Shown here: positions 1 to 20,078 of the stretch, in pieces
Layout: the number at the start of each line of letters is the position of its first letter
Position numbering within the stretch: the stretch's first letter is position 1
Assembly (NCBI GenBank): GCA_004431415.1
Contig: QPMI01000429.1
Location: 1 to 64,000, forward strand
Origin: Cyanophora paradoxa CCMP329
Lineage: Eukaryota; Plantae; Glaucophyta
Length of the DNA stretch: 64,000 bases
Reading direction: 5' to 3'
Made by a program: the position numbers and the translations under genes
Notes under the pieces: generated by a model
Database searches by the model: none
Told to the model about the DNA's origin: nothing
Seen by the model: only the letters and a program-made list of their open reading frames with translations

Positions 1-23
1 GAGTCCTCTTTTAGAATCTGTGA

Positions 24-134
24 AAAAATGAGTCAACTCCCCCACTTAGTCAACCTAATCGATAAATAAACCATAAATAAAAGACTGTTTGGGTCTTTTA
101 TGATTAAATTTGAGTCAACCTGTGAGTCCACTTT
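24..134. repeat. Block of GAGTC(A/C)AC iteron-like motifs, diverged relative of 18901-19011 (inverted) and 19055-19088 (direct)
   Basis: aaaaaatgagtcaactcccccacttagtcaacc ... cttttatgattaaatttgagtcaacctgtgagtccacttt aligns by eye with the reverse complement of 18901-19011. Confidence 0.85.
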
Positions 135-143
135 TGAGTAAAC

Positions 144-2712
144 CTAAAACTTCAACATCAGATCATAATCTGATGCATCAGGATCAGCAGCAGGTAGTTC
201 TTGTTTCATCCTTGGATTAGCTTCTTCCTCAATGGTCTCCATTACAAGCTTCATCTTTCTGAATTCCTCAAATACTTGTGGGAAGAAATGATAGTATTGT
301 TTACCATTTGTAGTTTTCACTTGGATATATGTAACACTTCGCATTTTGTATAATATCTGCGACTTATAATCGTTTTATATTATTTGCTGGTAATGAACTC
401 CTGGAACCATTTCCAGGTTTCCACAAGGCTACCAGACTTGCATTTATTCTCGGAAATTAAGCCTCGATCACCAAGCCACTTAGTGAACATAGGATGATTG
501 GGCGCACCTGCTGGGCTAAATAGTATTTATTTGTAAGGGGTCTATCAGCAATCCAGTTCACATCCTCACTCAACTTTGGTTCTCAAATAGTGGGCAATGT
601 TTCGAATATTGCAGTGATCATTAAGCCATATTTACAAGTGGAAGGAAGTATGACCTATCCTTTGCGAATTTCTTACTAACTTCAACAACCACAAATCGCC
701 TATCTCCAGCTTCAATTTTAACTGGAATGTTGTTATTGCTGGTGAATATAATCCTGGCAAAGTTGCTTTTTGTGTATGAATCTATCCCTTTGTGTTCAAT
801 ACAATCTTATCAGAAGTTAATGAGATCTTTAAGCATATCATTATTTTCGAATGTGTCCTTGCCTGAGGCTTCATTCACAACAATAAGATCTTATCCTCTC
901 TATTGTGGGCAAATCGACCAAACAGATCCTCTTTTGGCTTACCAGTTGCATAACTCAGGGCATCTCCAAGTATCTTCTTTTGGAAAGTATCAACCAACAC
1001 ATTCTTACCAGTTCCCTGTTCACCAATGAAGATTAAGGATACTCCATTGAGTTCCCCAGGCTTTTGCAGCATGTGGGCAAACCATTTCAACAGATATTCA
1101 TAGGTATTTTGATCCTCACCAGACATTAAGAACAAGTGATCAAGGAAAGGCTTAATCATCTCAGCAGTTACATCCTCTGGAGCATTTTCGAATTGCTGAT
1201 GGTCGACCTTCATTCCTGGATAGAGATTAAATACAGACTTGCATTTTGCACTGAGAGTAGCAGGAGGGGGAGGAAATCCATGTAAGTTGATCTTGTGGCT
1301 GTTGGATCCACAATCCATTTCCTAAATGATTGCTCCCATTTCTCTTTCTCATTATCTGTCCCCTCATTCACAATCACCTTATGCATCAAGTGGGGGAAAT
1401 GCTTTGTAGAGAGTTTTCCCAATATCTTTGGGCATCCAGCAAAGTAGTTGTTCATCCCAGAGCATCACACAACCAACATTTTCAACATGATGCATTCGAG
1501 CATTGAAATACCTCTTATGCACATTGTAATGTTCAGCCAAAGGAGATACTTGCAGTCTTGTAATCGATTTTCATTGTGTCTCTGGTAGGAATGCATACTT
1601 TTTGGGGAAGAGTTCCTTGAAAAGCTCATTGTTATCTTTGCTCAACCAATAAACAAGGATTTGAAGGTCAACACTTTGCCAGGCTCAGCCTTCTTCTTGC
1701 TTCTGCGAGCTGTGTAAACTTTTCTGGCATTCATCATAATCATACTTGTCACTCTGTTCTGAGAATTGGTGGAAGAGTTCAGCCTGCATTTTAGGGGTAA
1801 ATTTGTTGTCTTCCCAACATTGATGATGACCAGTCCAACATCATCCAAGTCTTATACTCGCTGGCTCTTTCAGCATTGAGACCCATTATAACACTTTGTA
1901 GCAGTTCGAAAGTAACAGGATTTTCGGGTTCAGTGTCTTTTTCAGCTTCTACCTTCTCAGTCTTCACTTTATCACTTTTTGGCTCCTTTTTAACTGGTTT
2001 TGGCTCAGGAGTATAATTTGCAAATGCAGAAATATTTGATTCATCACAAGTTTAGTAGTAGCTGAGAGTAAGATACAAAGAAGTCCTCATTTCGCATTAA
2101 CACTTTGTCACAGTCAACGAATTTCTTAAAGCAAACGTTTTTATCAACATCTTTTTTCGACTTATTTTGAGCATCCAGAGTCTCACCTTTGCAGCAATTG
2201 AGGCAGATTAGGTTCTGTGTGGAGCTGTAAACTCCACTGTCATAATCCTCATTTTTCACCAATCCCATCGCTTTGAAAAGCTTGGGGATATCTTCATGTT
2301 TGCATGCAAGCGACTTAATGATAAAGTGGGCTGAGATCTTGAACTTGGTGACATCCTCCTTGATCAAATAAACCCTTCTATGGCGAACTGCAACAGCAAT
2401 ATCGTTAATTGAAGTGGTCCCAGATCGCTTCCATAGCTTATCTCTCATCTCTCTTACAACAGTTTCCGCCTCAGCATAGTTATCAGCAATGTTCTCCTTC
2501 AAATCAGCGAATTTATCCAGGTCCAGGTAAACTCTGGTCACTTGCTCAGGTTGAATGCATTCAGCCCAGGTCTTAACCTTGCTATTATCAATAGCTTCAA
2601 GGGCATCTTCGGCGGAATCAAATACATGGGTGACCTTGTTGCGATCACCAATGAGAGTACTAAGGAATGTAGCATTTTCAACAGGGGTGGCGAATTTCTC
2701 GATTTTGTTCAT
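144..2712 (-). CDS. AEP primase - D5-like superfamily 3 helicase fusion, split by several frameshifts (main fragments 2044-2712, 1210-1455, 875-1318, 144-344)
   Basis: N-terminal RVYLDLD / KISAH / DSGVYS..Q AEP motifs; helicase part FNLY..., FLDHL...YLLKWFAHMLQKP, Walker A GEQGTGKN; continuing off-frame into VNEA (Walker B), IIFTSNNNIP and GDRRFVV. Confidence 0.88.
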
Positions 2713-2851
2713 TTTCGATTTTGGGGGACTTCTACCTTTAACGAAGAAAATAATTTCGGAAGGAGGAATTGTCTTTTATATATATCCTATTATTTGCCAA
2801 GTCCTTAAGTAGTTTTGGGTCGGGATACTGTCTCGATATATAGGTACAGTT

Positions 2852-3256
2852 TTAAAAAAGAGGGAAGAAAGCTGTCATTTTTTTGCCTCCGATCAAATCG
2901 ATTTCTACAAAATTTGTTTCGATCGAGAATTTATTCTTCGATATATTTCCGAGGTCTTCCAACCGGTTTATGCTCTTTGGGTTTCTTGGCTGTTCATCTT
3001 TCTTCTTGTGGTAATATTCCAGCGCTTTTGCCTTTTTTTGCTCGCGATATTCTTCATTTTCCCTGTATTTCCTCTGGTGTCTGAGGGCAATCTTTTTGAG
3101 TTCTTCTGGTGTGTGAACTGTAGCGGCTCCTTGGGATAATCGTTCCTGCTTCTTTTTATGATAGGCTTCGCGTTTTCTTTGGGCATCTTGCTCCCTTTTC
3201 AGTCTCAGCTTCTCTGCTTTTTCATCATCTGTGAGTATCTTGCGGATATTCGGCAT
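2852..3256 (-). CDS. Small basic coiled-coil protein, possible DNA-binding
   Basis: 134-aa K/R/E-rich ORF with RKYRENEEYREQKKAKALEYYHKKK; TAAAG upstream of ATG. Confidence 0.6.
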   Translation of the reverse strand: MPNIRKILTDDEKAEKLRLKREQDAQRKREAYHKKKQERLSQGAATVHTPEELKKIALRHQRKYRENEEYREQKKAKALEYYHKKKDEQPRNPKSINRLEDLGNISKNKFSIETNFVEIDLIGGKKMTAFFPLF

Positions 3257-3407
3257 TTCTCTTTAATAGTAGATACGAAAATAATTTTTCCTCAATACAA
3301 TCTATCTACTTTTTCCTTAAGTCATTTTTGTTGCGAACACCAGTTCCTGTCTGTAAACTTTTATAGCTGCCTCAGTGGCATACTGAGACCGCTTTTTCTC
3401 AATTATC

Positions 3408-3653
3408 TTATAGACCTGGGGGTCCATTGCTACTTTCAGTAGGCAAATAATATTTAATTGGTCTACCTCTGGGTCTCTGCTCCTCTTTTTGGGCTTTTCT
3501 GCGATAATAGGATGCCAGGGCTTGCTGCTTTTTATACTCTCTATATGCTGGGTCCTCTCTATATCGTTTCTGCATTGCTAGAATGTGTCTAATAGAACCC
3601 TCAGTAACAGGTTCATCACTGGTAAACTCGATTAAACTAATAGTGTCCTCCAT
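3408..3653 (-). CDS. Small basic protein with AT-hook-like RPRGRP; paralogue of 2852-3256
   Basis: QKRYREDPAYREYKKQQALASYYRRK aligns with the 2852-3256 motif; RPRGRP follows. Confidence 0.6.
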   Translation of the reverse strand: MEDTISLIEFTSDEPVTEGSIRHILAMQKRYREDPAYREYKKQQALASYYRRKAQKEEQRPRGRPIKYYLPTESSNGPPGL

Positions 3654-3908
3654 TTATATTCCCAGAGAAAACGTTTTCTGCTGGCAGAGAACTTCTCCTT
3701 GGATACTCCTGTTGCTCATATGTATACTCTGTGGGGTCTGCTGGCATTGACTCCACAGAAATCGTAGACCTCCTTCTCTCTCTTGCTTCTGAGGCATTAT
3801 CCTCAGTATCTGACATCTCAAACTCCACTCTTGTCTCACAGCATCCACTGTGGCAATTGCTCACCACATGCAGACTGAACATCTCGAAAACTTTCGTATT
3901 ATATCCAT
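3637..3908 (-). CDS. Small hypothetical protein with CHSGCC motif (probable 5' frameshift)
   Basis: ORF 3637-3882 plus upstream out-of-frame ATG at 3908; overlaps the start of the next gene. Confidence 0.4.
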
Positions 3909-4038
3909 GTCTCTAATAAAACAGAGATAATTAAAGCCAAACTCGTCTTTTATATACTGTGGGAGCTACTCCTTTTCTACTTCAGCTTAGTGGCACCAGG
4001 TTCAATGGTTCCCTTCTGGGTCTTTGTTTTCATTTCAT

Positions 4039-4659
4039 CTACTGCCTGCTCATCGATTTGGGTTCTTTCTTAGCAATAAACTGTTTATCTGGGACACCAG
4101 TAATGCCCATTTTATAAACTTCCTTTCGAAGCATCTCCTTTAGCTTGGCTCTCTCTTTCTTCTCAGTAACATACTGCTCCAAGGCACTTGATTTGGCTTC
4201 CAGATCTTTGAGTTTAGCAGTCATCTCATCCCATTGAGCCTTGGGAATTCGATGAATATTTTGAGTGGGAGCAGTCTTATATGTGACTTCACCAGCCATA
4301 GACTGGATTACCTTGTCTGATTCTTTACTGAGACCCTCACCTTTGCGAGCCAGTGATAGATCTTGCAAGCCTAAACCTTTATCATCAGCAGCACAATAAT
4401 TCGCCTGGCTCCTCAGCAACAGCCTTCATCTTTGAGGCTTCAGGTGAAATGTTGAGTTGGTCACTGGTTGAAGCCTGTGGGGCTTTGTCATCAAATGATT
4501 CCTCATAGGCAGCATTGAGGGGGTCTTCTTGTTGTTGAGAGGGCTTCACTTCATTCATACCATTGAATTTCAGTGGGTCTGTGTTAATGGATCCATTGTT
4601 TCCACCACCTGAATAGCAACAGCCCCAGCTGGGATCCCTATCTTTCGTTTGGGAGGCAT
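4039..4659 (-). CDS. Hypothetical viral protein (frameshifted; starts MPPKRK)
   Basis: ATG at 4659 preceded by AATAAAG; C-terminal fragment is ORF 4039-4419 with a coiled coil; NLS-like PKRK. Confidence 0.45.
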
Positions 4660-4773
4660 TGTATCTTTATTAGAATGAGAGATAATTTTATAAACCGCGT
4701 TTATATCGCATCAATTTATTGCTATGGACTTGGCTTTTCACTTCTTTGGGGGCTTCCTCTTTCTCTGGTGGTT

Positions 4774-5466
4774 TCAGTTCATCTTCTTTCTTTTTGGCTT
4801 CCTGTGGAAGCGAGGAAATGGGAAATCTTTCACAAGCTCAGCTTTATCTACATAGTATTTAACTGAGTAGTTTGCAGAGGACCAAATGATATACTGATAG
4901 GAGTGAACATACTCTTCAAACATCTTGTAGAAATCCTCTTTATTTCGCATTATATTGTATTCTTCCTCTATGGCTTCCAGTTCTTTGCGATTTGCAGCAC
5001 TTAGAAACATTGCATAATCGAATTTACTCGAATAGTCGAAGAGACTTTTCTTAGCTTTTGTGTGATGCAGATAATGGATATTTTCGAATGGCGACCTCTG
5101 GAATACAGAGATCCGATTATTTTATCCTTGTGAGATCGACTATCTCATTATCGATTAATCATCTAAAACCACACACAATTGGTTAACAGGTTCACCTTTC
5201 TCTATTTTCTCTTGCCTCTCATCTAGCAATTTAGCAATGTAAGGGGCATCCCATTTTCCCAGTTGCAGTGTTGCCACTTTATCCCAGAAATGATTGAAGC
5301 TGGTTCCACTCACAACTAATACAACATCAATCTTTTTGGCATCATGTAATTGCTTTAACCAATACTTCACAGCTTCTGATTTACCAGTTGCTGATTTTCC
5401 TATTGCCAATACACGAAATGGTGGTTCTATCATTTCACCAGCCACAAATTCATCCAAATCAGTCAT
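4774..5466 (-). CDS. A32/FtsK-like DNA packaging ATPase (frameshifted)
   Basis: Walker A GKSATGKS, Walker B LCVVLDD; manual translation past the break gives LYSRGRHSKISIICITQK...TIRVN (A32 GRH...Q...R.N motif), then ORF 4774-5010. Confidence 0.92.
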
Positions 5467-5531: not shown

Positions 5532-6898
5532 CTATAAATTAATTCTGCGTAAACCATCTTTGTCGACAATAATAAAGCTATGCATGAGAGCGCGAACATT
5601 AACATCGATTACCTTATCTGAAGGCATGTAGAGGGTGAGGAATGAAGAGGAGGAATTTGTTAAATCAACATAACCAGACTGGGCAATATTTCGAATCGCC
5701 TTTTCTCCATCAAGGCAGAAAGGCAATCCTGAAAGGACATAGCGATCAGCAACCTTATCCATGTTAGAGCATTTGAAGGCATCAGCAATTAGCTCAGCAC
5801 CTTTGAGTAGGGAAATTGGCTCAGTGGCAAAAAGTCGCTGACCATTTATTTCAGTTGTAAATGTTATGTCTTTGGAGTTGGCATAGGTCTTAAGAACACT
5901 GTGGGAGCCATTGGATTTGTCAACAGTTGCATTATCACGAACTGAAACAAGCAGAGCATATACAAGACCTGAGATTTGAGAGAGGTTAATTCGATTGGGT
6001 TGGGCATTGCCCTTAGCAGGGAAAGCAATAGCATCAACAAATCCAATATCAAGGGAGGGAATAGCCATGCCAGTAGTCTTAACTTTTTCAATTACAGTAG
6101 CGAAAAGCTCATCAGAAACATTAATAGCATGCATATAAAGGCGAGGAGAAGTAATTGAAATTTCAGGAGTTGTTGCACCAAGAGTAAAGTCTGTGATGTT
6201 TTGACCAACATTTGCCAGAACAGTTTCAGCAGGGGCAGTTCCAAGACCATCATCTTTTGAATAATCTACATCAGCTGCTGCAACAGTAAGACCACGACCA
6301 CCATAGGATGTTTCAACATAGCCTTTTCCAACATCCTTAAACAAACAGTAACAACCATTTCACCAGATAAAGCACCAAGGGGAAGGTAGTGATTTAGCCA
6401 AGGCACTGGAATTTCAACGAAAAATGAGCCACCAAGTCGGTTGGTTCCATGAGCAGGGATGCCATGAACCATGCCCATTGATCGTTTCTTTTTAGCTAGT
6501 TGATCCTCGAATAATAGACCAGGGGAAATGAGCAAGGAAATCAGATGGAATATGGTAGGTGTAAGATCCATAGGTAATTTCAAGTCGCTGAACTAAAGCA
6601 CCAACTGGGCGAGTGTATCCATTGCGAACTAGATCAGTATCACCAGCAAAAGTGATAGCTGGAAGGTCAAAAGCAAGTTCGAGTTTTCCACAGAAATTGT
6701 AGCGAGTAGCTTGAAGGAAATGCGATTTCCTACATTATTTGTGAAAGTATTACTAGGATTCACAACAACTAGAACTGGCTTAGACTTGGATTCGAGACCA
6801 AGCATAAGGGAGTTATCCAGGAAAAAGGCTTTCGCCTCCTCTGGGGTTGTTAGGGCTTCTTTCAGCGAAAGTCTTTGAAGAGTGGAAGTGATATCCAT
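5532..6898 (-). CDS. Probable double-jelly-roll major capsid protein (frameshifted; fragments 6629-6898, 6266-6583, 5532-6344)
   Basis: About 450 codons in total, beta-strand-like composition, motifs such as RISFKL, FFVEIPVPWL..YLPL.AL..EMVV and ISITSPRLYMH; lies between ATPase and penton as in PLVs. Confidence 0.72.
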
Positions 6899-6951: not shown

Positions 6952-7962
6952 TTATGCGAAGTTTGTAATAACTGGATAGGAAGGGTGAAGCTGCGACATT
7001 CTCATCTTATAGTATTCATAAACTGGGTCCCCAGCTGGCTCATCACCATAGCGAATTTCAAAGGTAAGATGAACAGGTTGACCCTCGAAATCAATTGGTT
7101 CATTAACAGCATTCACAATATCAACCGAGAAAGTGGATAATCCAACCTTCTTATTATAGTATTTGTAAAGTGGATGAGCCTCTGTCGAATTGTAAACTAC
7201 ATGCTCACCATAATCTTTGTCAGGGACCACTATTTTATGGAAGTAACCAGTCAGGAGACCATCCCCACATTGCACCAGATCACCCAGCTCCTTTACTCTC
7301 ACAAACAAAACACTGTCCCTGGTCATTTCAGGCTCAAATGAAGATATAATACCGTTTACTCGAGTTCCAGTAAAGATTCCATCAGTGAGAGCATCATAGA
7401 CCTGTGATTTGATTGGGGAATTACCATATCTTCCAGGATCAAGACCAAAAAGTCGAGCTGAGCTTAACAGCTTTTGGATTGTTTTCAGGTTTGGGTCTAC
7501 AGCAAGTGAGAAAGCCAGGTAAAACTTTTTTTCGGAATGGAATATAATTCGTTTCAGTGACTCATCCCATTTGCAGCGAACAGATGGTTTAGGATTTCTG
7601 TCATTAAACTTTTCATTTATAACATTCACCAGCTGTTGGTGGTTTTGAATGGGGGTTTCGCGATTTACAATGAATTGTTTCCATTGTTCAAAATCAGCAG
7701 CTGGGCGAGTTGTTGGAATTCCTGTAGTTCCAGCTCCCGCAAGCTCTTCAGAATAATAAATACTAAAAGTGTTGTCAACTGTTATATCTCCTGCTTTGGT
7801 TTCACCACTCACCATAGGGATGCTGTTATAAAATTCGGCTGAGACCAGTCTCACAGCCCTCACATTCTCATAAGTACTGGGGAGTCTAGCCACAAAGCTT
7901 GATGTGGGACCATCACCAGAGATTGTATTAAATGAGCTAACCTCGATGTAATCCACAGGCAT
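6952..7962 (-). CDS. Minor capsid protein / penton-like (single jelly roll) 1
   Basis: N-terminal IEVSS...SSFVARLP..YENV.AVRLVSAEF.NS and C-terminal LSTFSVDIVN....IDFEG.PVHLTFEI, typical of PLV/NCLDV penton proteins; intact 336 aa. Confidence 0.82.
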   Translation of the reverse strand: MPVDYIEVSSFNTISGDGPTSSFVARLPSTYENVRAVRLVSAEFYNSIPMVSGETKAGDITVDNTFSIYYSEELAGAGTTGIPTTRPAADFEQWKQFIVNRETPIQNHQQLVNVINEKFNDRNPKPSVRCKWDESLKRIIFHSEKKFYLAFSLAVDPNLKTIQKLLSSARLFGLDPGRYGNSPIKSQVYDALTDGIFTGTRVNGIISSFEPEMTRDSVLFVRVKELGDLVQCGDGLLTGYFHKIVVPDKDYGEHVVYNSTEAHPLYKYYNKKVGLSTFSVDIVNAVNEPIDFEGQPVHLTFEIRYGDEPAGDPVYEYYKMRMSQLHPSYPVITNFA

Positions 7963-7991: not shown

Positions 7992-8922
7992 ATGAACCGG
8001 CTCGTTAATATTGATAGCAGGGATAGAAGCCAAGGACAAAATGAAAACTCTTACAGGGTCACCCTCACAACTCCAGTAGAGAGACCAAGGGAATGCAGGG
8101 TTCTATATGCAGAGATTCCAAACAGCATCTATAACAGTGTGGGAACTGATCATCTAACAGTTCAGTTTAATTACCAAGATGGTTCATATAACCAAGTGAT
8201 CACACAACAAGTGTATCCCCTTCCCAGTGGCTACATCAATCAGGGTCATTTTGGGGTAACACACCCTTATAATTATGGGCTGAACTATTCAAGCTTCCAA
8301 ACCATTGCAGGCAAAACAGTAGCTTTTGAGTTCAAGATATTCTATAACCCAACTACCTATAAAGTGGAGTTTTACAGTAACCATGAGTTTCGTTTTATTG
8401 CAAGCAACCAGAGAATAGGGAAGCTTTTGGGTGTGAGTTCTACTGAATACACCAATGGGTATTATAGCACTCCTCCTGTTGGTGGATCACCCTATCGACC
8501 TGAGAACCTGTTAAAGTATGATGGCAAACCTATTACACCTGATCACCCAGCATGGGAACCACCTTTTCAGGACCCAGACTCTCATCTAAGCCCTTGCAAT
8601 ATTATTTTGACAGCAGAAAGATGTCTGATATGAATGCTGAGCAGTATCTATACATGCACATTAAAGAGCTTGCCCCTTTTGCCAGCAGACACAATATAAT
8701 TCCGAAATCGCAACCACATAACCAGGGGCAATCCTTAGATTGCAATTGAGTAAGGATATAGGTGGCTATGTTTACCATAGTGGTGAACATGCAGAATTCA
8801 TTCAGATAAATGACAGAAACCTGGTGATAAGGGAACTCACAGTTGAGTTTAAAGATTACTTTGGTGAACTGATTGATATGAATGGAATCGATAATTCTTT
8901 TCAGTTGGAGTTTATCGAATAA
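7992..8922 (+). CDS. Minor capsid protein / penton-like 2 (frameshifted near 8600 and 8730)
   Basis: VNIDSRDR...YRVTL...VLYAEIPNSIYN at N-terminus; YLYMHIKEL; C-terminal IRELTVEFKDYFGELIDMNGIDNSFQLEF. Confidence 0.85.
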
Positions 8923-10509: not shown

Positions 10510-13500
10510 ATGAGCTTCAATTACCCACCCAATCTAGAAACCATTCAAGATGATAATGCAAGCAGCACCAAGCATGTGAACTTTGATAATATTAAAGTAA
10601 AGGGTTCAGTTTCAATTGACCACAGCTCTGATAATTCATCAAAGACTCAATCAAGGGAGCATGCTTTATCTGTGAATCAAACCGATCCAGATAAAGAGGA
10701 GGTCAGTGTTGCTTTTAGTTTGGGTAATGTGAAAGCAAACCAAGTGGCAGAGATCAAAGCAACAAGAAGGAGACCTAGGAAACTAAAAACCAGTGGCACT
10801 CACCCAGATATACCTTCCAGGTTCGATAGTGGTCGATTGATTTTCAATGTTCAAGATGAGCAGGGCAAACAGAACACAGCTTTGCGAATTTACAATGAGG
10901 GCAGCACTGCAAAAGCTGAGGTCCCCAAGTATTGCAAGTGGGTCCCATTGCCAACACAAATCAGGTCTCCTACACAAATGATGTATACCCCAAGGATATT
11001 ACATATGACTTTGCGAGGAATGAGCCTTTTGGGTTTTTTACTCCAAAAGATGTCCATCAAAAAAAGCCATCAATTACAATCAACAGTAGCCCCAGTCAAC
11101 CAGTAGCAATCCATTTACACCCTGATTTAGTCGAAATGGATAGGCACCTTTTGCCTTTGTATAGCAATGTGAAAGACCTTGGAATTCGAACCAGGCAATG
11201 GCGAAATATCCATGGCAGCAATGTGTATGCAAATGGAGAGAAGCTTGTAAGTGAGAAAACCCTAAGAGAAATCATTGAGCATTATGGTCCCAATGGACCT
11301 ACTGTCCCATTCCCTATTCCATTTCCCAATGGACCACCCGATTTAACACCAAAGAAGCAACCTGGAAGAGAATACACAGCAACTGAAGATGTAGCCTTTG
11401 GGCAGCACATTGTTAGTTGGGAGCAAGTTCGCAATAAACCTATAATTGAACCAAAAAAGCAAATAGATGAGCAGTATTTACCTCCTGAAATCGATATATT
11501 AGAGCTTGATGAATATCAATTCGTTCCAGATGAGGAAGAATATTTACCAGATGGTTTTGACCCACAAGAATATGAATATGATCAGTTTGATCCCAATGAG
11601 GAGGAGATACTACCAGATGGCTTAGATCCACAAGAGTTTGAGTATGAGCAGAACTATGAACCTGATGAGGAGTATTTGCCAGATGGGCATGATCCACCAG
11701 TTGTTGATTATGAGCAACCTTATGAACCCCATGAGGAATTATTACCAGATGGATTTCGACCTGAGATCTGGGAGTTCTTTCCTGATTATGAACAAATTAA
11801 TAATAAACCTGCAAAGTATCCCCAGAGGATCACAATCATGATTGGGATGAGATCTTAGGCAAACCTCAAAAGTATCCACCAGAGGATCACAGGCATGATT
11901 GGGGTGAAATTGATGGGATTCCAACTGAGTTCCCACCAAGCAAACATGAACATATTTGGGATGAGATCAATGACCAACCAGAATTTGCAAAGGTGGAGCC
12001 TCTTGATAACTTGGGGTTTCTCTTTACCAGACTTGTAATATCCCTGAAAGGATCTTTTTGAATGAACACTATGTTCATGTGAATGGGACACTTGCAAATT
12101 CAGCTATGAGAGGACCACTTCATATTAGGACATTACCAGGCTCTTTTGAAACCCACCACCACCAGGAGCAACCATACCAAATATCTTTGTGTCAAGCTAC
12201 ATGGAGGCTGACATTCCCACAGATACATTCAGAGTCCCAACAGACCCAGCAACCTACCAAAATTACAACTCTGCTATACAGGTTCATGTAGCAGATGTAA
12301 GCAGCTTAGATGGCTCAAGACCAATGATAGTTTTCAGTCGAGATAAGTATTCCTACATTCCCATAGTGGGAACTGCAAATGATAATTATGGAAGGGCAGA
12401 GCTTGCATGGATTAAAACAGATTATGGTGGGGTTCTGGAAGCCAATCAAAGAATGGCTGCAAAAAACATACACAATGAGAGCATTTCGAGAGTAGTCACA
12501 GAGGATTACCTTCAAGCTCAGAACTACATAGATGAAACAGAACTAAATACAATCATTGCAGGTATAGGTATTGGTGTTACAGGCAATTACCTCCCTCTCA
12601 CAGGTGGGACTATTGATGGAACAGTAACAGCATGTAACTTCTTTGTCCATACTGAAAGCAATCAAACCTTTCCTGTGGTTCATCCAGGAGGTGAGTATGA
12701 GATACCTGATGATCCAGCTATTATGCCCATTAAGATTGATCTCCCTTCTGATTATGTAGGAAGGGGTGAACTAAAGACCATCTCTTTCACAGGAGATTAT
12801 AATGATCTCATAAATAAACCTACTGCTGCAAATCTGCATCCTGTTGCATTTTCGGGTAGTTTCCTTGATCTAAATAATAGATCACACACCCACACAAAGG
12901 CAGAAATCACAGATTTTGCACACACTCACACCAAATCACAAATTACAGATTTTGCACACTTCCACACAAGAGCAGATATCACAAATTTCGCTCACACTCA
13001 TGTTAAATCAGAGATATTAGATCTCGGAAATGTTGCATATGTGGGTCACACCCATACCAAGGCAGAGATTACAGATCTTGGAAATGTTGCATATGTTGGT
13101 CACACCCACACAAAGGCAGAGATTACAGATTTTGCACACACTCATGATTGGAATACAGATATCTATAACAAACCTGCAATTTTCTCAGGAAACTACAATG
13201 ATTTGACCAATAGACCAACTCTTGATCCTTTCACAGCCACCACAATCAGAGCCAACAACACAATGTATGTAGGATCAGGTCAGATTGTAGAACCAGCAGG
13301 ACCTATGTTTGAAGAAACATGGTTCTTCCACAATTCGCAGAATTACTTTGATAAAACCTTACTTGTTCGTGGAAATGCCTATGCAAGAAATTTCTATGCT
13401 ATGAACCCCTCAAATAATGCGACCATCAGTCGATGTATTACAGAGGCAGATCTTTCCAGTCAACTCAATGCATATTTTAATGGGAAAATCCAAGCAGGAA

Positions 13501-13766
13501 CGTATGTTTACACTACTCCTTATCTTTGGGCAAATCCTGACCATAGGTTTAACCTCACTATTAATTTCAACAGCAGCTTTGCTAACCCTCCTATTGTAAC
13601 AACTGGTATACAACACAATGAGACAGCCTACTACTATCGAATGTATGTTAGGCTTAAACAAGTTTACAGTAGCTATTTCACTTGTGAGCTTGACATAGTT
13701 CCATTAAGTTCTTTTGACAGACCAGGATTTCCAGTTACAATTCATTACATTGCTGTCGCAATTTAA
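10510..13766 (+). CDS. Long fibre/adhesin-like protein (ORFs 10510-11106, 10932-11858, 12058-12291 and 12189-13766 probably one frameshifted gene)
   Basis: Acidic EEYLPDG.DP repeats, PP.DH.HDW.EI..KP repeats (off-frame, 11810-11990), FSG.YNDL.NKP and HTHTKAEITDF phage-fibre repeats, C-terminal H-type-lectin/gp53-like domain (INFNSSFANPPIV...IHYIAV). Confidence 0.75.
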
Positions 13767-13785: not shown

Positions 13786-14865
13786 ATGACCTCCCTTTTA
13801 GAGATTCCGAACTATGAACTTGCAGCCAAATCACTCCACAGCACCTCTCATGAAGTAGTCGACTCCACACCCGGTTTTATTTGCACTGAAACTACAAGTA
13901 ATACCTCTTTCACAGAGAACAGTATACTGAGGGTCAAAGAAATTCGATGTGATCGAAATGGAGGCAAGATTAGAACCACAGGCATTATAATCTCGAATAA
14001 AAACCAAGTTCAAGCAGGTCAGGTAGTCCCCAATTCAGCAATATATGATAATGTGGGTGGATTCACCACAGCACAGATAGTTACTTTTGGTAATACAAGC
14101 AATAATTCTGCTCTTGTGGTGAAAAGTGGAGGAGCCTACATTGGTGATGGAGCAAATGTAGCAGGAACTCTGACAGCAAATCAATTGACTGTGAGTGGGA
14201 CATGTTCATTTGCAGGATTGATGACCTTTAATGGTGGGCTTTCAGGGAATATTCAGTATGGAACACTCACACTTTCCACAAGAATAAATACACCTGAGAT
14301 TGACAACATGAGTGACATAGTCATGAATTACAAGAGGAATGGGGATACCATTCTTTCTCTTCAAAAAACTACTCAAACAGATAACACAACTGTTCAACAT
14401 CTCACACTTCCTGACTACAAGTATCTGAAATTAAGTAGTCACCCTCGTTTCTTTGCAACAAAACAGGAACCAAATGGGTCAATAACTGAAACATTTCGTT
14501 ACATTCTAACCGAATCCTTTTATGCGATAGTCAACAATGGAAATCATTTCAATACCACAACAGGGCTTTTTACCGCACCTGTTTCCGGTAACTATTTAGT
14601 CTCATTCAGTGGATTCTTTTTTATTCCTGATACTCGAAGAAATGGAATAATCACTACCTTCTTACGGAAGAATGGAAGCTCATTTGGAGTTGAGGTTACA
14701 ACTTTAAATAAATCATCAACTGTGTATGCTCATAATGGGTTTGAGATTATTGTAAGCCTTGAAGCTAATGATGGTCTCTCTTTAACTTTTGCTTCTAATG
14801 ATGCTGGTAATATAGAATATAATGTCAGATTTTTCTTCGGATGTATGCTTCTCAGCTCTTCATAA
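13786..14865 (+). CDS. Fibre paralogue A with C-terminal C1q-like domain
   Basis: Shared N-terminal module (KEIRCDRNGG.VRTT, SGGAYIGDG); PRF...NNGNHFNTTTGLFTAPVSGNY...LRKNG C1q signature; ATG 13786 after TAAAG. Confidence 0.82.
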   Translation: MTSLLEIPNYELAAKSLHSTSHEVVDSTPGFICTETTSNTSFTENSILRVKEIRCDRNGGKIRTTGIIISNKNQVQAGQVVPNSAIYDNVGGFTTAQIVTFGNTSNNSALVVKSGGAYIGDGANVAGTLTANQLTVSGTCSFAGLMTFNGGLSGNIQYGTLTLSTRINTPEIDNMSDIVMNYKRNGDTILSLQKTTQTDNTTVQHLTLPDYKYLKLSSHPRFFATKQEPNGSITETFRYILTESFYAIVNNGNHFNTTTGLFTAPVSGNYLVSFSGFFFIPDTRRNGIITTFLRKNGSSFGVEVTTLNKSSTVYAHNGFEIIVSLEANDGLSLTFASNDAGNIEYNVRFFFGCMLLSSS

Positions 14866-14887
14866 TATTATCCACATAATGTAAAGT

Positions 14888-15906
14888 ATGACCACTCAAA
14901 TAGCTGTCCCTGTTTTCTGTTATGCCGCCCCAAAATTACATCAACTCAATCACACAGTAACAGATGCAACCCCTGGTTTTATTTGCACTGAAACGACAGG
15001 AGCCGATTCGTTTTCTCAAAACTCTGTGATCAGATGCAAAGAAATTCGATGTGATCGCAATGGGGGCAAGGTGAGAACCACAGGTTTAATAGTTTCAAAC
15101 AAAAACCAAGTTCAATCAGGTCAGATAGTCTCAGATTCATCAATATATGATGATGTTGGAGGGGTCACCACACCCAAAATAGTAACCTTTGACAATACAA
15201 TTAATAACTCTGCTCTTGTTGTGAGAAGTGGAGGAGCTTACATTGGAGATGGGGCAAGAGTTGATGGAACTCTTACAGCAAACCAGGTGAGTATTACAGG
15301 AACAAGCACCTTTACAGGATTGGTAACAGCTAATGCTGGTATTTCACTACCAATTGCCTCACAGGCTACAATCACAGCAACAAACAAGGTTGTTACACCA
15401 GAAATCGATACAGGAGCCAATGTAGACCTTCTCCTGAAACGAAATAGTAACACTGTTGTTACTCTGGAAGCGAATAGTTTGACAGTTAATACAGGGTGTT
15501 ATCTCAAAACATCACATCCACGATTTTCAGTTCAACTTGGCTACAACCACACTGCTACAACTTCTGCTGATCTAATAAACTGGGCAACAGTTCGAGTAAA
15601 CAATACCAATTCATTCAGCACATCAACTGGAAGGTTCACAGCACCTGTTGCAGGACACTATCGATTTTCAGTATTCACTTCTTCAACCACAACTTCTGCT
15701 ATTGAATTGTTTCTCAGGGTAAACAATGCAGATCCAGGGGATTGAGCATTTCCCAAGTTCACAATCTGTCAACAACAAATAAAGCGCTGTGTTTCTCTTG
15801 CATTCTCAATCTTGCCCAAAACGAATATGTGACACTTGTTACAAATTCAGTCGGTTCCTATGCAAGTCAAACAGCCTTCTCAGGTGAATTAATAAGCATC
15901 GTTTAA
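14888..15906 (+). CDS. Fibre paralogue B with C-terminal C1q-like domain (frameshift near 15740)
   Basis: Same N-terminal module; FSTSTGRFTAPVAGHYRFS; off-frame continuation ...ILNLAQNEYV...FSGELISIV ends at 15906. Confidence 0.82.
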
Positions 15907-15928
15907 TTTTCTTATGGTAGTTTAGGAA

Positions 15929-16195
15929 ATGTCGAATATTTACCAAGTGGTTCTATCTGATATTGAGAAGTTGGGAATGGAATTTTGTGCTGCTTCTGTT
16001 CAAGATTGGATCGATAATGCAGCCCATAACAGGGCAAGAATCGCAATTGATGAGATTGTTCAGAAAGAGATCCACTCTTGCATCTCAGGTGGAGTTCAAA
16101 TACCAACCTCAAAGGAAGCAATTGTGTTACAGGCATTCCAAAGGGGAACTGTTAAAAAAGCGATCGAGTATAATATTATCACAGAAGAGCTGTGA
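15929..16195 (+). CDS. Small phage-like protein, possible fibre partner/chaperone
   Basis: QDWIDNAAHNRARIAIDEIV...QIPTSKEAIVLQAF resembles (from recall) small ORFs that follow C1q-type fibres in aquatic tailed phages. Confidence 0.6.
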   Translation: MSNIYQVVLSDIEKLGMEFCAASVQDWIDNAAHNRARIAIDEIVQKEIHSCISGGVQIPTSKEAIVLQAFQRGTVKKAIEYNIITEEL

Positions 16196-16230
16196 ACATT
16201 ATTTTTCTTTCCTTCTTAGTAAAAGAAGCA

Positions 16231-17076
16231 ATGGGTGAATATAATCGGGTTCAACTGCCTATATATTCCCTTGGATCCCCTGCAATGCATTTTCGCCAGC
16301 ATGAAGTAAATGATGAGGTTCGTGGTTTAGAATCCACAGAGAGACCCAATTCCAATGGTAACTCCTTTGATAAAAATTCGATTATTCGAGTAAAAGAGCT
16401 GAGAGCTGATAAGAATTCTGGTGTGGTTAAAACAACTCGACTTCTTGTCACCAATGCTAACTTCTTCCAGCCTACAAATGGAGGTCCTGATGCTTACAGT
16501 GTTGCCCTGAAAGCCCTAGATTTCGACAAGAATACTGCTGCTGTTACTGTGAGATCAGGAGGAGCATTTATTGGGGGAGGTTGCAGAGTGTCAGGTCAAC
16601 TCTCATCCTCCATTTCGTATAATGATGTCCCAGATACTCTAGAGCAAAATGTGGAAGACCCCCAACGAATTCGATTATATACTCCTGTTGCACAGCAGCC
16701 ATTAATTCAATTTTACATTGGATATACTGTTACTCTTGAAAACTCGGAATTAATTGAAGGAACCAAAAGAGTACTGAGAGGTCTTGCGATTCCATCTGCA
16801 ATGCTTTCCCTTTGTAGAGCCAACAACAATCAAGTAGGTCATAAATACTATTTCAATGTTCAGGGATATAATCATTTCGGTTATGGCTACTGTGTTTATA
16901 ATAATAATTTCACCTTTGACTTGTTTGTTACAGATATTGGGTTATATACTATAACTCTTATCGGTTTGAGAACAGATATAGCCGCTGTATCAGCTCTTAG
17001 AGGTGTAACTCCTGATACTCTTTCAGTTACAGGGTTTTACCAAGAGCCAGATGTAATTGATGACCCAACCCCATAA
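16231..17076 (+). CDS. Fibre paralogue C with non-C1q C-terminal domain
   Basis: Shared N-terminal module (RVKELRADKNSGVVKTT, SGGAFIG); C-terminus HFGYGY...GLYTITLIGLRTD. Confidence 0.72.
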   Translation: MGEYNRVQLPIYSLGSPAMHFRQHEVNDEVRGLESTERPNSNGNSFDKNSIIRVKELRADKNSGVVKTTRLLVTNANFFQPTNGGPDAYSVALKALDFDKNTAAVTVRSGGAFIGGGCRVSGQLSSSISYNDVPDTLEQNVEDPQRIRLYTPVAQQPLIQFYIGYTVTLENSELIEGTKRVLRGLAIPSAMLSLCRANNNQVGHKYYFNVQGYNHFGYGYCVYNNNFTFDLFVTDIGLYTITLIGLRTDIAAVSALRGVTPDTLSVTGFYQEPDVIDDPTP

Positions 17077-17099
17077 AAGATATATCCCTTTAATGTAAA

Positions 17100-17934
17100 A
17101 TGGCAGAGGCACCCACACCAATAGAGCGAATTATAACACCACAGCTATCATTAGCTGCCCCAGCAAACCATGTTTTACAGCATGCTACTTTTGATGATGT
17201 GGAAGGTCTCCAATCCACAGAGGTCCAACCTACCATGAATACTTTTGGTTCCACCCACAAACTGAGATTGCAGGAACTCAGATGTGATAAAAATAATGGA
17301 ATAGTTAAGACAACTAAGCTACTTGTCACAAATGCAAACTTTTCTGCTCATTATGGAGACCCAGATAGCTATGGAGATCCTCTGTCTACTTATTCTTTTG
17401 AATCTAGGTCTGGAGCTATTAACTGCAAATCGGGGGGAGCTTATATTGGTGATGGTCTTAGGGTTGGTGGGGCTGTTGGAGCGCCTCTATTTGTGAATGA
17501 TCAACCCAATCCCATTGATCCTAACACAAGAATTCGAACCTATGTCCCAGCATGAATGCCCCCTATATAATCAAGATATTCCCAATTGTTGTGAATGAAC
17601 AAACAGCAGTAGTAGACTCTCTTGTTGAGATTGGTGACCACTATAAGGTAGTTGTTGATATTCCACCTGATGTTTATGCTGTTTGCCAAGTAGAGGGTGG
17701 AACTCCTAATTTTGCTGTTGTGATCACCCATATGATAATTTTGGTATTGCTTATCATGGAGTCAATTTCGGTTTGGAAGATTATCAGTTCTTAGTGAGAG
17801 CCACCAAGTTTGGTATCTACAAGTGTGTATTATATGCTGAGAGAACCGATTTTATTGCAAGGCAGAATACCTATGCTGAGTATTATGGCACAAATCGATA
17901 TTTCCCCATTTTTGGACAGGATACTGCTCCATAA
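17100..17934 (+). CDS. Fibre paralogue D (frameshifted near 17550 and 17730), C-terminus related to paralogue C
   Basis: Shared module (LQELRCDKNNGIVKTT, SGGAYIGDG); manual joining gives ITPYDNFGIAY...GIYKCVLYAERTD, stop at 17932-17934. Confidence 0.68.
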
Positions 17935-17956
17935 GAATATTGGTTATATATAGAGT

Positions 17957-18229
17957 ATGGATAGTAAAACAAAAAAGTTTATTGATGCTGCTATGACAGT
18001 TCATGGTAAAGATAAATTCGATTACAGTGAGACACATTACATCAAAGCTCAAGAGAAAGTATCTGTTAGATGTTTGCAGTGTAACAAGGTGATCCTTACA
18101 TATCCCTTTAATCATGTGAAGGGATCAGGTTGTAGGGAATGCAACAAAAAGCATTCTCAGGCTTACAGGAAAAGGGCTACTTCATCAATCAAAGTAGAGT
18201 ACAGGGATATTTGCATTAGGTTCGATTAG
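17957..18229 (+). CDS. Stand-alone Zn-ribbon (DUF723-like) protein
   Basis: FI..A..VHG.DKFDYS...Y.....KV...CxxC.......HxxGxGCxxC, the repeat unit of viral homing-endonuclease-associated domains; no nuclease domain attached. Confidence 0.72.
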   Translation: MDSKTKKFIDAAMTVHGKDKFDYSETHYIKAQEKVSVRCLQCNKVILTYPFNHVKGSGCRECNKKHSQAYRKRATSSIKVEYRDICIRFD

Positions 18230-18258
18230 GATTAATTAATTTTTCTAAGGTATTCTTA

Positions 18259-18657
18259 ATGGAGACTAAATACAGAGGCTTTCATGTAATGCTTGATTAC
18301 AAGGCTAAAACAGCTATAGCAACAGGTTATGAGCATGTTAGCTTTCTTGGTAATTGGATTATGAGAACCCTTGAACAAGCAATATTGAGACAAGGTATTA
18401 GGATTGTTCATAAACACTGTGAGATATTTGATGGCAAACTATCACCTCCTGGTTTTGCTTTGGTTCTGCTATTAGATGAAAGCCATTGTACAGCTCATTG
18501 TTATTCCAATGAAGGCATGTTAGCAATTGATATATTCAGTTGTGGTAAAGAAGCTCAGCATAAAACACAATCAGTAGCAGATGAGATCGATAAAACAATG
18601 AATTTCTTAACATTTGAGAAGACTGAGAGACATAAACATGATAGATTCCCGTTTTGA
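18259..18657 (+). CDS. speD: S-adenosylmethionine decarboxylase proenzyme, short prokaryotic type (class 1B)
   Basis: G.H..LD start, PPGF..V.LLDESH self-cleavage motif, AHCY.....AIDIFSCG; 132 aa, intact. Confidence 0.9.
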   Translation: METKYRGFHVMLDYKAKTAIATGYEHVSFLGNWIMRTLEQAILRQGIRIVHKHCEIFDGKLSPPGFALVLLLDESHCTAHCYSNEGMLAIDIFSCGKEAQHKTQSVADEIDKTMNFLTFEKTERHKHDRFPF

Positions 18658-18901
18658 TGGGTTTCTATAATGAATTTCTAAAGGATTCCTTTGTTTTCTA
18701 ACAATAACATTGATAAGCTACTGTAACAAAAAGATATAATATATCCTTTCACTACAGTAGCTTTATACAATGATTATTTTCCGGATTCCGGACATTTTTT
18801 ACGATAGAATTCTATTGTAAGTAATTGGAATAATGTTCGATTTCATTACAGTAAAACTCAACATTCCCCTAGATTCCCCCTATTATATAATATTTATATT
18901 A

Positions 18902-19620
18902 AAGTGGACTCAAGGTTGACTCATATTAATCGTAAAAGTAGTAATAGTATATGGATTTTGTTACGAATTCAATGCAAGGGTTGACTAAGTGGGTTGAGTT
19001 GACTCAAATTTCACAGGAAATATTTGGGACCAAAAGTTTTCTAAAAAGGATTTCAAAAAATGTGTCAACTCCCCCCACTTAGTCAACCCTGACCATAAAC
19101 AGTAAGGATTTGAGCTAACATGTATCACAAAGTGAACATTTTGAGTCCACTTAGAAGATCCACCTAACAGTTTAGAGTCAAATTTACTTGGGAATTCGAT
19201 TTGTATAAAAAGTGAGTCCACCCTGACCATATTCAATAAGCATTCCTCTTAATCCCCTTGTTTATATTTACATTGATTAATATTTAATACTAAGTGGACT
19301 CATGGTTGATTCATATTAATCGTAAAAGGAGTAAATGTATATAAAAATGTGACCATTTCAATGCTAAGGTTGACTAAGTGGGTTGAGTTGACTCAAATTT
19401 CAGAGGAAATTTTGAGATCCAAAGAATATTCTATAAAAGATTTTGAAAAATGTGTCAACTCCCCCCACTTAGTCAACCCTGACCATATACAGTAAGCATA
19501 AGAACTTAAATGTATCACAAAGTGAACATTATGAGTCCACTTAGAAGATCCACTTTTGAAATCAAAGTTGATTTTGCTTGAAATTTCAAAGTTGATCTAA
19601 AAGTGAGTCCACCCTGATTG
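18902..19620. repeat. Two ~390-bp tandem direct repeats built from inverted GAGTC(A/C)AC motifs (candidate replication origin)
   Basis: aagtggactca at 18902 and 19292; ggttgactaagtgggttgagttgactcaaattt at ~18979 and ~19368; tgtgtcaactccccccacttagtcaaccctgaccata at 19061 and 19451. Confidence 0.92.
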
Positions 19621-19778
19621 ATTATGGTAACAAAGTTGACTAAGTTGACTAAGTTGAGTCATCTTAAGAAATTCAAGAAGACTAAGAGTTCAAAATGTTT
19701 ATGAAAAGTGAGTCAACTTAGACCACTTATGGTAACAAAGTTAAATATTTAATTGATTTAATCGGAAAAGAACATGAT

Positions 19779-20005
19779 TTAATCGAATTTATTGATATAA
19801 TTCCGATTAGATTCATTTAGGATTCAATTAAGATTAATCGAAGTTATAGATATAATTCCGATTAACTACAATTAAGATACAATATCGATTAATCGAGTTT
19901 ATCGATATAACATCGATTAAATTAATTGAAAATGCATGTAAAAATATGAAAATTCATGTGAAAATTCAAATAAATTAATCGATTTTATTGATATAACATC
20001 GAATC
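19779..20005. repeat. Four ~32-bp imperfect palindromes (TTAATCGA...TCGATTAA type)
   Basis: Copies start at 19779, 19834, 19889 (55-bp period) and 19975; best copy ttaatcgagtttatcgatataacatcgattaa. Confidence 0.8.
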
Positions 20006-20078
20006 ACACATATGAATATTCATATTTTAATCCTGAGGCGGAACGCCGAGGGATTAAAATATGAATATTCATATGTGT
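20006..20078. repeat. Terminal hairpin at virus/host junction
   Basis: Perfect 28-bp inverted repeat (20006-20033 / 20051-20078) around tgaGGCGgaaCGCCgag; each arm contains the 16-bp palindrome ATATGAATATTCATAT. Confidence 0.95.

What the first reader, a model, noticed from the sequence alone, without database searches (positions are those of the whole stretch)
1..20078. ~20-kb PLV with primase-helicase but no polB, integrase or protease between two related motif blocks
Seen: all genes from 144 to 18657 lie between two homologous GAGTC(A/C)AC blocks in partly inverted orientation, and none is a protein-primed polB, rve integrase, tyrosine recombinase or adenain-like protease. Inference: if 24-134 is the inner edge of the left terminal region, the coding set is complete. 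The element would then replicate via AEP-D5, iterons and hairpin ends and integrate without its own integrase. Over a third of its length goes to fibres. This is the best candidate for an undescribed system in the window.
Basis: partly seen in the sequence, partly recalled or inferred. Interest (0 to 1): 0.8.

Follow-up and report, generated by a model that had tools for sequence, protein, structure and literature searches.

The report
Integrase-less hairpin-ended algal polinton-like virus
A 20-kb virus present in dozens of copies in an alga's genome ends in a precise fold-back hairpin and shows no insertion enzyme among the genes in view, so it likely primes its own copying from the hairpin and likely borrows the enzyme from sister viruses; its family is already catalogued, and the unseen left end could still hold such a gene.

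Summary
Positions 1-20078 are an AT-rich polinton-like virus (PLV) in a GC-rich host, very likely the glaucophyte Cyanophora paradoxa. Genes tile 144-18657 with gaps of at most 151 nt: primase-SF3 helicase, A32 ATPase, capsid, two likely pentons, patatin-discoidin, five fibres and SAM decarboxylase. No polB, rve, tyrosine recombinase or protease was detected. Short-read contigs show a multi-copy family (about 30-40 copies with this replicase, about 70-90 sharing the capsid arm), an exact end at 20078 on a 73-nt hairpin with three different flanks, and an intact empty site. The best-supported frame breaks look like assembly errors. 'Undescribed system' is overstated: this host's PLVs are catalogued (Bellas 2023; Bulzu 2025: 156 elements, 0 protease, 0 recombinase, 85 rve, 40 D5). 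Hairpin-ended and integrase-less PLVs are each reported, and this scan noted hairpin ends and swapped replicases in siblings elsewhere in this genome. I did not find the combination described. Best model: hairpin-primed copying with rve integrase borrowed from siblings. The left end was unreadable, so an upstream integrase is not excluded.

The parts
1..145 (.). Left iteron-like block (GAGTC(A/C)AC motifs); likely the inner edge of the left terminal region, cut by the window start
   Evidence: 98 of 135 columns match 18893-19030 inverted; also matches the right units directly
144..2712 (-). Replicase in many frame pieces: likely AEP primase (2047-2712, motif-level only), likely PriCT-2, SF3/D5-type helicase (about 624-1320); 144-344 may be its tail or a separate 66-aa gene
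   Evidence: Pfam DUF5906 and PHROGs primase hits; tblastn 35-43% to P0005-P0007; own HMM E 1e-27 for the helicase, only E 0.3-2 for the PriCT-2 pieces; AEP motifs recalled, no library hit
2852..3256 (-). 134-aa basic, helix-rich ORF, possibly DNA-binding
   Evidence: ORF; no family hit
3408..3653 (-). 81-aa basic ORF resembling the previous one by eye
   Evidence: ORF; no family hit
3637..4656 (-). Low-complexity, coiled-coil frame pieces, likely one or two core proteins
   Evidence: Pieces; only coiled-coil-type hits; missing bases at 4063, 4393, 4616 in short-read contigs
4774..5466 (-). A32-like genome-packaging ATPase, in three pieces
   Evidence: Walker A and B visible; Pox_A32 E 6e-4 on 5004-5144
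5532..6898 (-). Major capsid protein, about 455 aa, in four frames
   Evidence: 57-65% identical piecewise to P0001; P0001 is listed in Bellas 2023 Table S2 with HHpred 98.5% to an iridovirus MCP
6952..7962 (-). Likely minor capsid (penton) protein 1, intact 336 aa
   Evidence: Position and recalled end motifs; N-terminus weakly like penton 2 (11 of 2000 shuffles as good); no library hit
7992..8922 (+). Likely minor capsid (penton) protein 2, in pieces
   Evidence: missing base at 8553
8912..10466 (-). Patatin phospholipase fused to a discoidin (F5/8) domain; likely an entry enzyme
   Evidence: Pfam Patatin E 1e-15, F5_F8 E 3e-5; fusion noted in glaucophyte PLVs
10510..13766 (+). Likely one long fibre: unassigned front (10510-12200, in pieces), phage-tail repeats and a C-terminal H-type lectin
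   Evidence: Pfam PTR E 5e-8, H_lectin E 1e-4; missing bases at 10922, 11819, 12012; PTR-PTR-H_lectin reported for a C. paradoxa PLV
13786..14865 (+). Fibre/spike paralogue 1 with C1q head
   Evidence: Pfam C1q E 3e-5; shallow, variable region in reads
14888..15906 (+). Fibre/spike paralogue 2 with C1q head
   Evidence: Pfam C1q E 3e-8
15929..16195 (+). 88-aa ORF, unassigned
16231..17076 (+). Fibre/spike paralogue 3 (shared N-terminal domain of about 130 aa, different head)
   Evidence: 29 invariant columns across the four paralogues
17100..17934 (+). Fibre/spike paralogue 4, in pieces
   Evidence: missing bases at 17545, 17726
17957..18229 (+). 90-aa zinc-ribbon protein like the DNA-binding part of phage endonucleases; no nuclease domain seen
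   Evidence: PHROGs E 3e-9 over residues 5-71
18259..18657 (+). S-adenosylmethionine decarboxylase
   Evidence: Pfam AdoMet_dc E 3e-11; in 66 of 156 glaucophyte elements
18703..18778 (.). Imperfect hairpin behind the last gene, possibly a transcript-end signal
   Evidence: z -6.7 and -7.1 against 200 shuffles; function inferred only
18888..19730 (.). Two 390-nt imperfectly palindromic iteron-like units (82.5% alike) plus a partial third; likely origin or subterminal binding sites
   Evidence: a one-unit variant is common in run X2
19779..20029 (.). Four AT-rich 55-nt repeats
20006..20078 (+). 73-nt terminal palindrome (28-29 bp outer stem, G.A/A.G internal mismatches, 4-bp inner stem, GAA loop); exact right end of the element
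   Evidence: -30.6 kcal/mol, z -13; two other flanks follow this end in runs X2 and X20
20079..20586 (-). Host target: 5' part of a GC-rich ORF in a repeat of about 9-10 copies, cut by the insertion
   Evidence: Contigs of all four runs carry the uninterrupted site; copy estimate

Best explanation
This is one copy of a multi-copy endogenous polinton-like virus, very likely of the glaucophyte alga Cyanophora paradoxa, of the subtype that carries an SF3 helicase likely fused to an AEP primase instead of a protein-primed polymerase; its free genome would fold each 3' end back on the terminal palindrome to prime copying, and it likely integrates with an rve integrase borrowed from sister viruses in the same genome. 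Shown: the gene set in view, the multi-copy state, the exact hairpin end, the empty site, and rve-bearing relatives in the host's catalogue. Inferred: that the left end mirrors the right about 0.7-1.1 kb upstream with no further genes; that the helicase loads on the GAGTC iteron units and a host or giant-virus polymerase elongates; that the integrase acts in trans; that patatin-discoidin and the five fibres serve attachment and entry.
For: Identity: P0001 (EukProt C. paradoxa) is 57-65% identical piecewise and is a published MCP; the patatin-discoidin and PTR-H_lectin fusions match those reported for glaucophyte PLVs. Multi-copy: single-contig depth over single-copy host depth gives roughly 30-34 (X2) and 33-42 (X1) copies of the replicase arm, and 67-87 (X2) at three capsid-arm sites. 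Precise insertion: three different flanks follow 20078, and the empty site is intact on the side that can be seen. Donor available: of 156 glaucophyte elements, 85 carry rve, 0 a tyrosine recombinase, 0 a protease, 49 pPolB, 34 an SF1 helicase and 40 D5_N; 49 + 34 is close to 85, which would fit D5-type elements lacking rve, though these are totals, not per-element data. Precedent: terminal palindromes go with non-pPolB replicases and particular RVE integrases in Halocafeteria; a replicase beside the inverted repeat is the usual end module, and supply in trans was proposed for the integrase-less Ca_PLV1.
Against: The left end is outside the window and no genome is held. The left block is only about 73% like the right units and matches them in both orientations. 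Terminal depth in X2 (31-44 copies) is not twice the replicase depth, although X1 (54) and X3 (108) are higher. In Halocafeteria the palindrome-ended subtypes are associated with RVE genes of the elements themselves, and across polisuviruses AEP replicases go with tyrosine recombinases, not DDE enzymes. No target-site duplication could be read. The AEP call rests on recalled motifs; searches and the fold gave nothing. Contigs of X1, X2 and X3 run through the empty site unbroken and none listed bridges this window's own junction (673 rows not shown). No free or fold-back genome was observed.
Confidence: 0.5

Rival explanations
1. The element is longer on the left. Block 1-145 is an internal repeat bracketing a mobile replicase, and an rve integrase (or other genes) lies upstream of the window, making this an ordinary hairpin-ended, rve-encoding PLV like the Halocafeteria subtypes.
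For: Left block only about 73% like the right and ambiguous in orientation; internal repeats around replicases are reported; 85 of 156 host elements carry rve; palindrome-ended Halocafeteria elements are associated with RVE; an unreviewed note gives a hairpin-ended sibling as 28 kb.
Against: The best match is inverted, to the innermost right unit, and the block abuts the last gene, as expected of an inner terminal-repeat edge. About 21 kb is a normal PLV size. The catalogue totals leave 71 of 156 elements without detected rve.
Confidence: 0.2
2. No integrase is involved. A hairpin-ended linear genome is opened at the base of the palindrome and joined or copied into chromosome breaks by its own primase-helicase and host repair, parvovirus-style.
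For: The whole palindrome is kept to the last base in all three junctions seen; no integrase in view; copy-in by AEP replicases has been proposed as a hypothesis; no recombinase among 156 host elements.
Against: Repair-driven capture usually leaves ragged ends (recalled), whereas the end is exact in 3 of 3 junctions; no HUH nickase gene is in view; rve donors are abundant in the host.
Confidence: 0.15
3. Integration is by a tyrosine recombinase supplied in trans by a non-PLV element, acting on the palindromic 390-nt units or on the ends.
For: AEP replicases correlate with tyrosine recombinases; the units are inverted repeats around a spacer; unreviewed notes report recombinase-bearing elements in this genome.
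Against: The junction is at the hairpin base, 350 nt or more beyond the units; the three flanks share no clear site; 0 of 156 catalogued elements carry a recombinase.
Confidence: 0.08
4. A cryptic integration enzyme hides among the unassigned or broken ORFs (2852-4656, 10510-12200, 15929-16195, 17957-18229).
For: Frame breaks lower search sensitivity; several ORFs have no family hit.
Against: The short ORFs are 81-134 aa; the long ones are low-complexity or fibre-like.
Confidence: 0.07

Closest known systems
Cyanophora paradoxa endogenous PLVs (Bellas et al. 2023, PMC10120064, Tables S2 and S4; Bulzu et al. 2025, PMC12220804, Table S6)
   Same: Same capsid family (P0001 is listed; a second listed 465-aa MCP looks closer still by eye, not aligned). 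366 MCP hits in two clusters. No protease, no recombinase; D5 in 40, lipase in 89 and SAM decarboxylase in 66 of 156; patatin-discoidin and PTR-H_lectin fusions.
   Different: What I saw are totals; no per-element table, no description of termini or iterons, and no statement on which replicase type carries rve.
Halocafeteria seosinensis virophage subtypes 1, 2, 5, 6 and PLV subtype 4 (bioRxiv 10.64898/2026.07.28.741278)
   Same: Terminal palindromes at the outer edge of the terminal repeats (52 nt in subtype 5), tied to non-pPolB replicases; hairpin priming proposed.
   Different: Associated with particular RVE integrases and adjacent to target-site duplications; here no rve is in view, the palindrome is 73 nt with G.A mismatches, and iteron units lie inside it.
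Entomopoxvirus-associated PLVs and Ca_PLV1 (Barth et al. 2024, PMC11296320)
   Same: Primase-helicase beside an inverted repeat as an end module; Ca_PLV1 is integrated with no detectable integration gene, and supply in trans was suggested.
   Different: They encode a cysteine protease; the primase-helicase types carry a tyrosine recombinase; insect hosts.
Mosaic polisuviruses with AEP-SF3 replicases (bioRxiv 10.64898/2026.10.13.758929)
   Same: Shared capsid modules with swapped replicases; AEP genes not always paired with integration genes; one example comes from the same species' assembly.
   Different: AEP is usually paired with a tyrosine recombinase; the word 'hairpin' does not occur in its main text.

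Membership tests
Polinton-like viruses (catch-all, Bellas and Sommaruga 2026) | [quoted passage not shown] | tested here: met
   By homology: 57-65% to P0001, for which a published HHpred hit to an iridovirus MCP is 98.5%. My own fold was uninformative (pLDDT 36).
Polinton-like viruses | A32-like packaging ATPase | tested here: met
   Pox_A32 E 6e-4 on one piece, below the curated cut-off, plus Walker motifs, next to the MCP
Polinton-like viruses | Minor capsid (penton) protein | tested here: inconclusive
   Two candidates by position and recalled motifs; no library hit; weak mutual likeness
Polinton-like viruses | 15-40 kb unit with terminal inverted repeats | tested here: inconclusive
   At least 20 kb with an exact right end; left end outside the window
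Polinton-like viruses | Placement in a named MCP/ATPase clade | not testable with these tools
   Only 3 plausible MCP relatives among 1.84 billion representatives; reference HMM set not available; Bellas 2023 files the host's MCPs under 'iterative HMM search' columns
Maverick-Polintons (Polintoviricetes, group 1) | Protein-primed polB | tested here: not met
   No hit and no room in 144-18657
Maverick-Polintons (Polintoviricetes, group 1) | rve integrase | tested here: not met
   None in view; upstream unseen
Maverick-Polintons, Gosseviruses and virophages | Cysteine maturation protease | tested here: not met
   No hit; 0 of 156 host elements
Mriyaviruses | 35-45 kb genome with HUH endonuclease and late transcription factors | tested here: not met
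   No such Pfam hit in the pieces scanned and no free coding space; the MCP does lean to giant-virus capsids in the published HHpred
Halocafeteria-type palindrome-ended elements | Terminal palindrome at the element boundary with a non-pPolB replicase | tested here: met
Halocafeteria-type palindrome-ended elements | Associated RVE integrase gene | tested here: not met
   None in 144-18657; upstream unseen
Halocafeteria-type palindrome-ended elements | Target-site duplication beside the palindrome | not testable with these tools
   Left junction outside the window

The most novel reading that the evidence does not exclude
A capsid-complete eukaryotic dsDNA virus that has spread to 30-40 exact-ended copies with no integrase from any source: a hairpin-ended, iteron-driven PLV that replicates by rolling hairpin and inserts through its own opened ends, joining parvovirus-like telomere biology to a giant-virus-like capsid.
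Probability: 0.15. Interest if true: 0.85.

Novelty: new variant of a known kind. Interest (0 to 1): 0.45.

Why it matters
How PLVs without a protein-primed polymerase start replication, and how integrase-less ones enter genomes, are open questions raised in 2024-2026 papers. This subtype offers dozens of copies with an exact hairpin end, an empty-site allele, and rve-bearing siblings in a cultured alga, so both questions can be settled by tabulating ends in existing long reads and by simple assays. If the integrase is borrowed, it would show a complete virus hitchhiking on its relatives' enzyme; if none is needed, it would be a new route of viral integration.

Tried and rejected
Upstream DNA: no genome is held; laying contigs on 1-20000 showed records running over the ends but no upstream letters. 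Environmental relatives: none for the capsid in viral or metagenome contigs, the replicase pieces, the fibre domain, the hairpin or the iteron; these word-based scans find close relatives only. P0004, the fourth hit, is a repetitive archaeal-looking protein and was dropped as chance. Folds of the capsid (pLDDT 36) and primase (pLDDT 43) were too poor to use; the Foldseek search gave nothing at E 0.001; PDB sequence searches gave nothing. No Atlas result was obtained, so a feature-based look-alike search is still open. Flip/flop ends: a deep X3 contig stops at 20033, where the two hairpin orientations would diverge. I first read this as flip/flop and then rejected it, because with about 100 junctions any flank starting with the right two letters makes the same branch. 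Both full hairpins seen (window and X20) have the same orientation. One-strand preference of the hairpin is small in the energy model (-30.6 against -29.5). Expression: no RNA holder listed; X19 and X20 are only guessed RNA and X20 also covers the non-coding end and a junction, so they are not used as evidence of transcription. A TATA-like word upstream of 10 of 18 starts (background 9.7%) is confounded by AT-rich spacers and is not claimed. No tree was built: three relatives are too few. Helicase relatives in IMG/VR (L001-L010) lie in other PLV/virophage-like contigs; one capsid candidate tested was unrelated. bioRxiv supplements and the Bellas per-element dataset could not be seen and may already list this subtype's gene content and ends.


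Full report
What is in the sequence. Positions 1-20078 have 30-42% GC per kb against 50-82% in the rest of the window. Between two homologous motif blocks, genes tile 144-18657 with no gap above 151 nt as I drew them. On the minus strand lie a replicase (2712 to about 144), small basic ORFs, a low-complexity likely core protein, an A32-like ATPase (Pox_A32 E 6e-4 on one piece), the major capsid gene and a likely penton. Then come a second likely penton, a patatin-discoidin fusion, a phage-tail-repeat/H-lectin fibre, four paralogues with a shared N-terminal domain (29 invariant columns; two with C1q heads), a zinc-ribbon ORF and a SAM decarboxylase. Fibres take 26.6% strictly, or 35.0% with 10510-12200. 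The helicase is SF3/D5-type (35-43% to P0005-P0007; own HMM E 1e-27). The AEP primase at 2047-2712 rests on motifs I recall; no library, pairwise or fold test confirmed it.

Missing genes. No polB, rve, tyrosine recombinase or protease family was hit in 43 chosen pieces, 41 pieces, or all 108 six-frame pieces of 30 aa or more in the three least-assigned regions. The rest of the element was scanned only as the chosen long pieces. Broken frames lower sensitivity, but there is no free space for such a gene unless one of the unassigned ORFs is cryptic.

Identity and host. The 275-aa capsid piece found 1 protein among 944 candidates, P0001 (55%), labelled Cyanophora paradoxa by its source. A profile search of 1.84 billion representatives gave 4 hits, 3 plausible, so this capsid family is rare outside the host. 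Bellas et al. 2023 (PMC10120064; passages and supplement rows seen) list P0001 itself as an MCP with HHpred 98.5% to an iridovirus capsid, and count 366 MCP hits in this species, 272 and 94 in two clusters. Bulzu et al. 2025 (PMC12220804; passages, section 10 and part of Table S6 seen) give, for 156 glaucophyte elements: protease 0, tyrosine recombinase 0, rve 85, pPolB (PF03175) 49, SF1 helicase 34, D5_N 40, lipase 89, SAM decarboxylase 66. They name the PTR-H_lectin and patatin-discoidin fusions seen here. The host assignment is an inference from these matches, and unreviewed notes on this genome say the same.

Copies and frame breaks. 18 of 24 listed runs hold half or more of the words of 1-10000, all under one organism code. 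Contigs of X1 and X2 cover 30 of 30 bins with thousands of variants. Dividing single-contig depths by single-copy host depth (about 36.5, 115 and 35 in X1, X2 and X3) gives rough counts: replicase arm 30-34 in X2 and 33-42 in X1, the left edge 22-23 in X2, three capsid-arm sites 67-87 in X2, and this copy's C1q alleles only 4-10. The tool warns that depth is no true copy number, so these are estimates. They fit a shared capsid arm with swappable replicase and fibre heads. Of 92 indel rows, 12 are shown; all 12 are a single C or G absent from the window, 11 of them next to the same base, and three fall at capsid frame breaks. This pattern suggests long-read assembly error, which Bellas 2023 also describe for such repeats. 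I cannot show that this single copy is intact; the helicase has two in-frame stops near 810.

The ends. The right end has two 390-nt units, each an imperfect palindrome of GAGTC(A/C)AC-bearing arms (z -4.7), four 55-nt AT-rich repeats, and a 73-nt terminal palindrome (-30.6 kcal/mol, z -13). The end is exact: besides the window's flank, X2 and X20 each show another flank behind 20078-20079 (182 loose-end rows not shown). The flank 20079-20563 is a repeat of about 9-10 copies, and contigs of all four runs continue it leftwards without the virus, which is the empty site. Read by eye, the minus-strand ORF stays open for the ten codons that can be seen. Against this, contigs of X1, X2 and X3 cross the empty site unbroken and no listed contig bridges the window's own junction; a one-copy link between two deep repeats may have been pruned, or the insertion may be culture-specific. 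The left block matches the innermost right unit inverted (98 of 135; score 130 against 75 +/- 4.5), but also matches the units directly (score 114). It abuts the replicase, as in the end modules of Barth et al. 2024 (PMC11296320, passages). Terminal depth is 31-44 copies in X2, 54 in X1 and 108 in X3, which neither proves nor excludes two identical ends.

Mechanism. Most likely (0.5) the free genome is linear. Each 3' end would fold back and prime synthesis without a terminal protein, the SF3 helicase would load at the iteron units, and a host or helper polymerase would elongate; none of this was observed. Integration to an exact end argues for an enzyme, and the only PLV integrase catalogued in this host is rve, so supply in trans is the simplest source. 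Rivals: an integrase upstream of the window (0.2), integrase-free insertion through opened hairpins (0.15), a recombinase in trans (0.08), a cryptic gene (0.07).

Comparison with what is known. Loss of pPolB and protease and use of AEP-SF3 are ordinary for PLVs (Bellas and Sommaruga, bioRxiv 10.64898/2026.06.19.733378, parts 1-4 of 5 read; Krupovic et al., PMC11161782, passages). Terminal palindromes tied to non-pPolB replicases, with a hairpin-priming model, are in the Halocafeteria preprint (10.64898/2026.07.28.741278, passages and section 7), there with RVE genes. An integrated PLV without a detectable integrase is in Barth 2024. AEP genes without integration genes, and internal repeats around replicases, are in bioRxiv 10.64898/2026.10.13.758929 (passages and section 13), which also finds AEP usually paired with recombinases. 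Starrett et al. (PMC8502044, passages) note relatives of a PolB-integrase virus in this species; the Tetraselmis preprint (10.1101/2025.10.09.676808, passages) shows D5 types with a recombinase that depend on a giant virus. Five literature searches turned up no paper describing a capsid-complete, hairpin-ended, integrase-less AEP-SF3 PLV, or the ends of Cyanophora PLVs; preprint supplements were not visible and may bear on this. The scan's own unreviewed notes report a hairpin-ended 28-kb sibling, siblings with swapped replicases, and an integrase-less fold-back replicon elsewhere in this genome.

Verdict. A real, well-bounded member of a catalogued PLV family, showing a combination of traits I did not find described. 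It works like the Halocafeteria palindrome-ended elements but shows no integrase of its own in view. New variant of a known kind; interest 0.45. Reading one kilobase or more upstream and the target-site duplications of the other copies would settle it.

Noticed in passing
window 32545-46120 and 50347-63846: A host segment is repeated directly at a spacing of about 17.7 kb, with sampled 300-nt blocks 77-99% alike.
   Followed up: no
window 20079-20664: The insertion target is a repeat of about 9-10 copies; 20534-20659 is shared with a further repeat family (about 19 copies), and run X20 shows a 53-nt GT..AG skip at 20564-20618 on the + strand, opposite to the interrupted ORF.
   Followed up: partly
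window 13786-17552: Four paralogues share an N-terminal domain of about 130 aa with no family hit but carry different heads; the two C1q-headed alleles are present in only about 4-10 copies, suggesting head exchange among copies.
   Followed up: partly
window 18259-18657: A SAM decarboxylase, common in this host's PLVs (66 of 156) and in some cryptophyte PLVs but absent from most other groups in the table part seen; a polyamine or base-modification role is untested.
   Followed up: partly
window 1-20000, run X19: A run under a second organism code holds near-identical pieces in 19 of 30 bins at depth 2-3: a related host, or the same alga present in that run.
   Followed up: no
L002 1017-17346 and L010 1025-8967: IMG/VR contigs with the related SF3 helicase beside an A32 ATPase and capsid-like genes; no integrase was obvious by eye in the 17 kb held of L002, of which 5 ORFs were scanned.
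   Followed up: partly
window 18703-18778: A strong imperfect hairpin 45 nt behind the last gene recalls the hairpin transcript-end rule of mimiviruses and virophages (recalled); no comparable hairpin stood out behind other genes in the 70-nt scan.
   Followed up: partly
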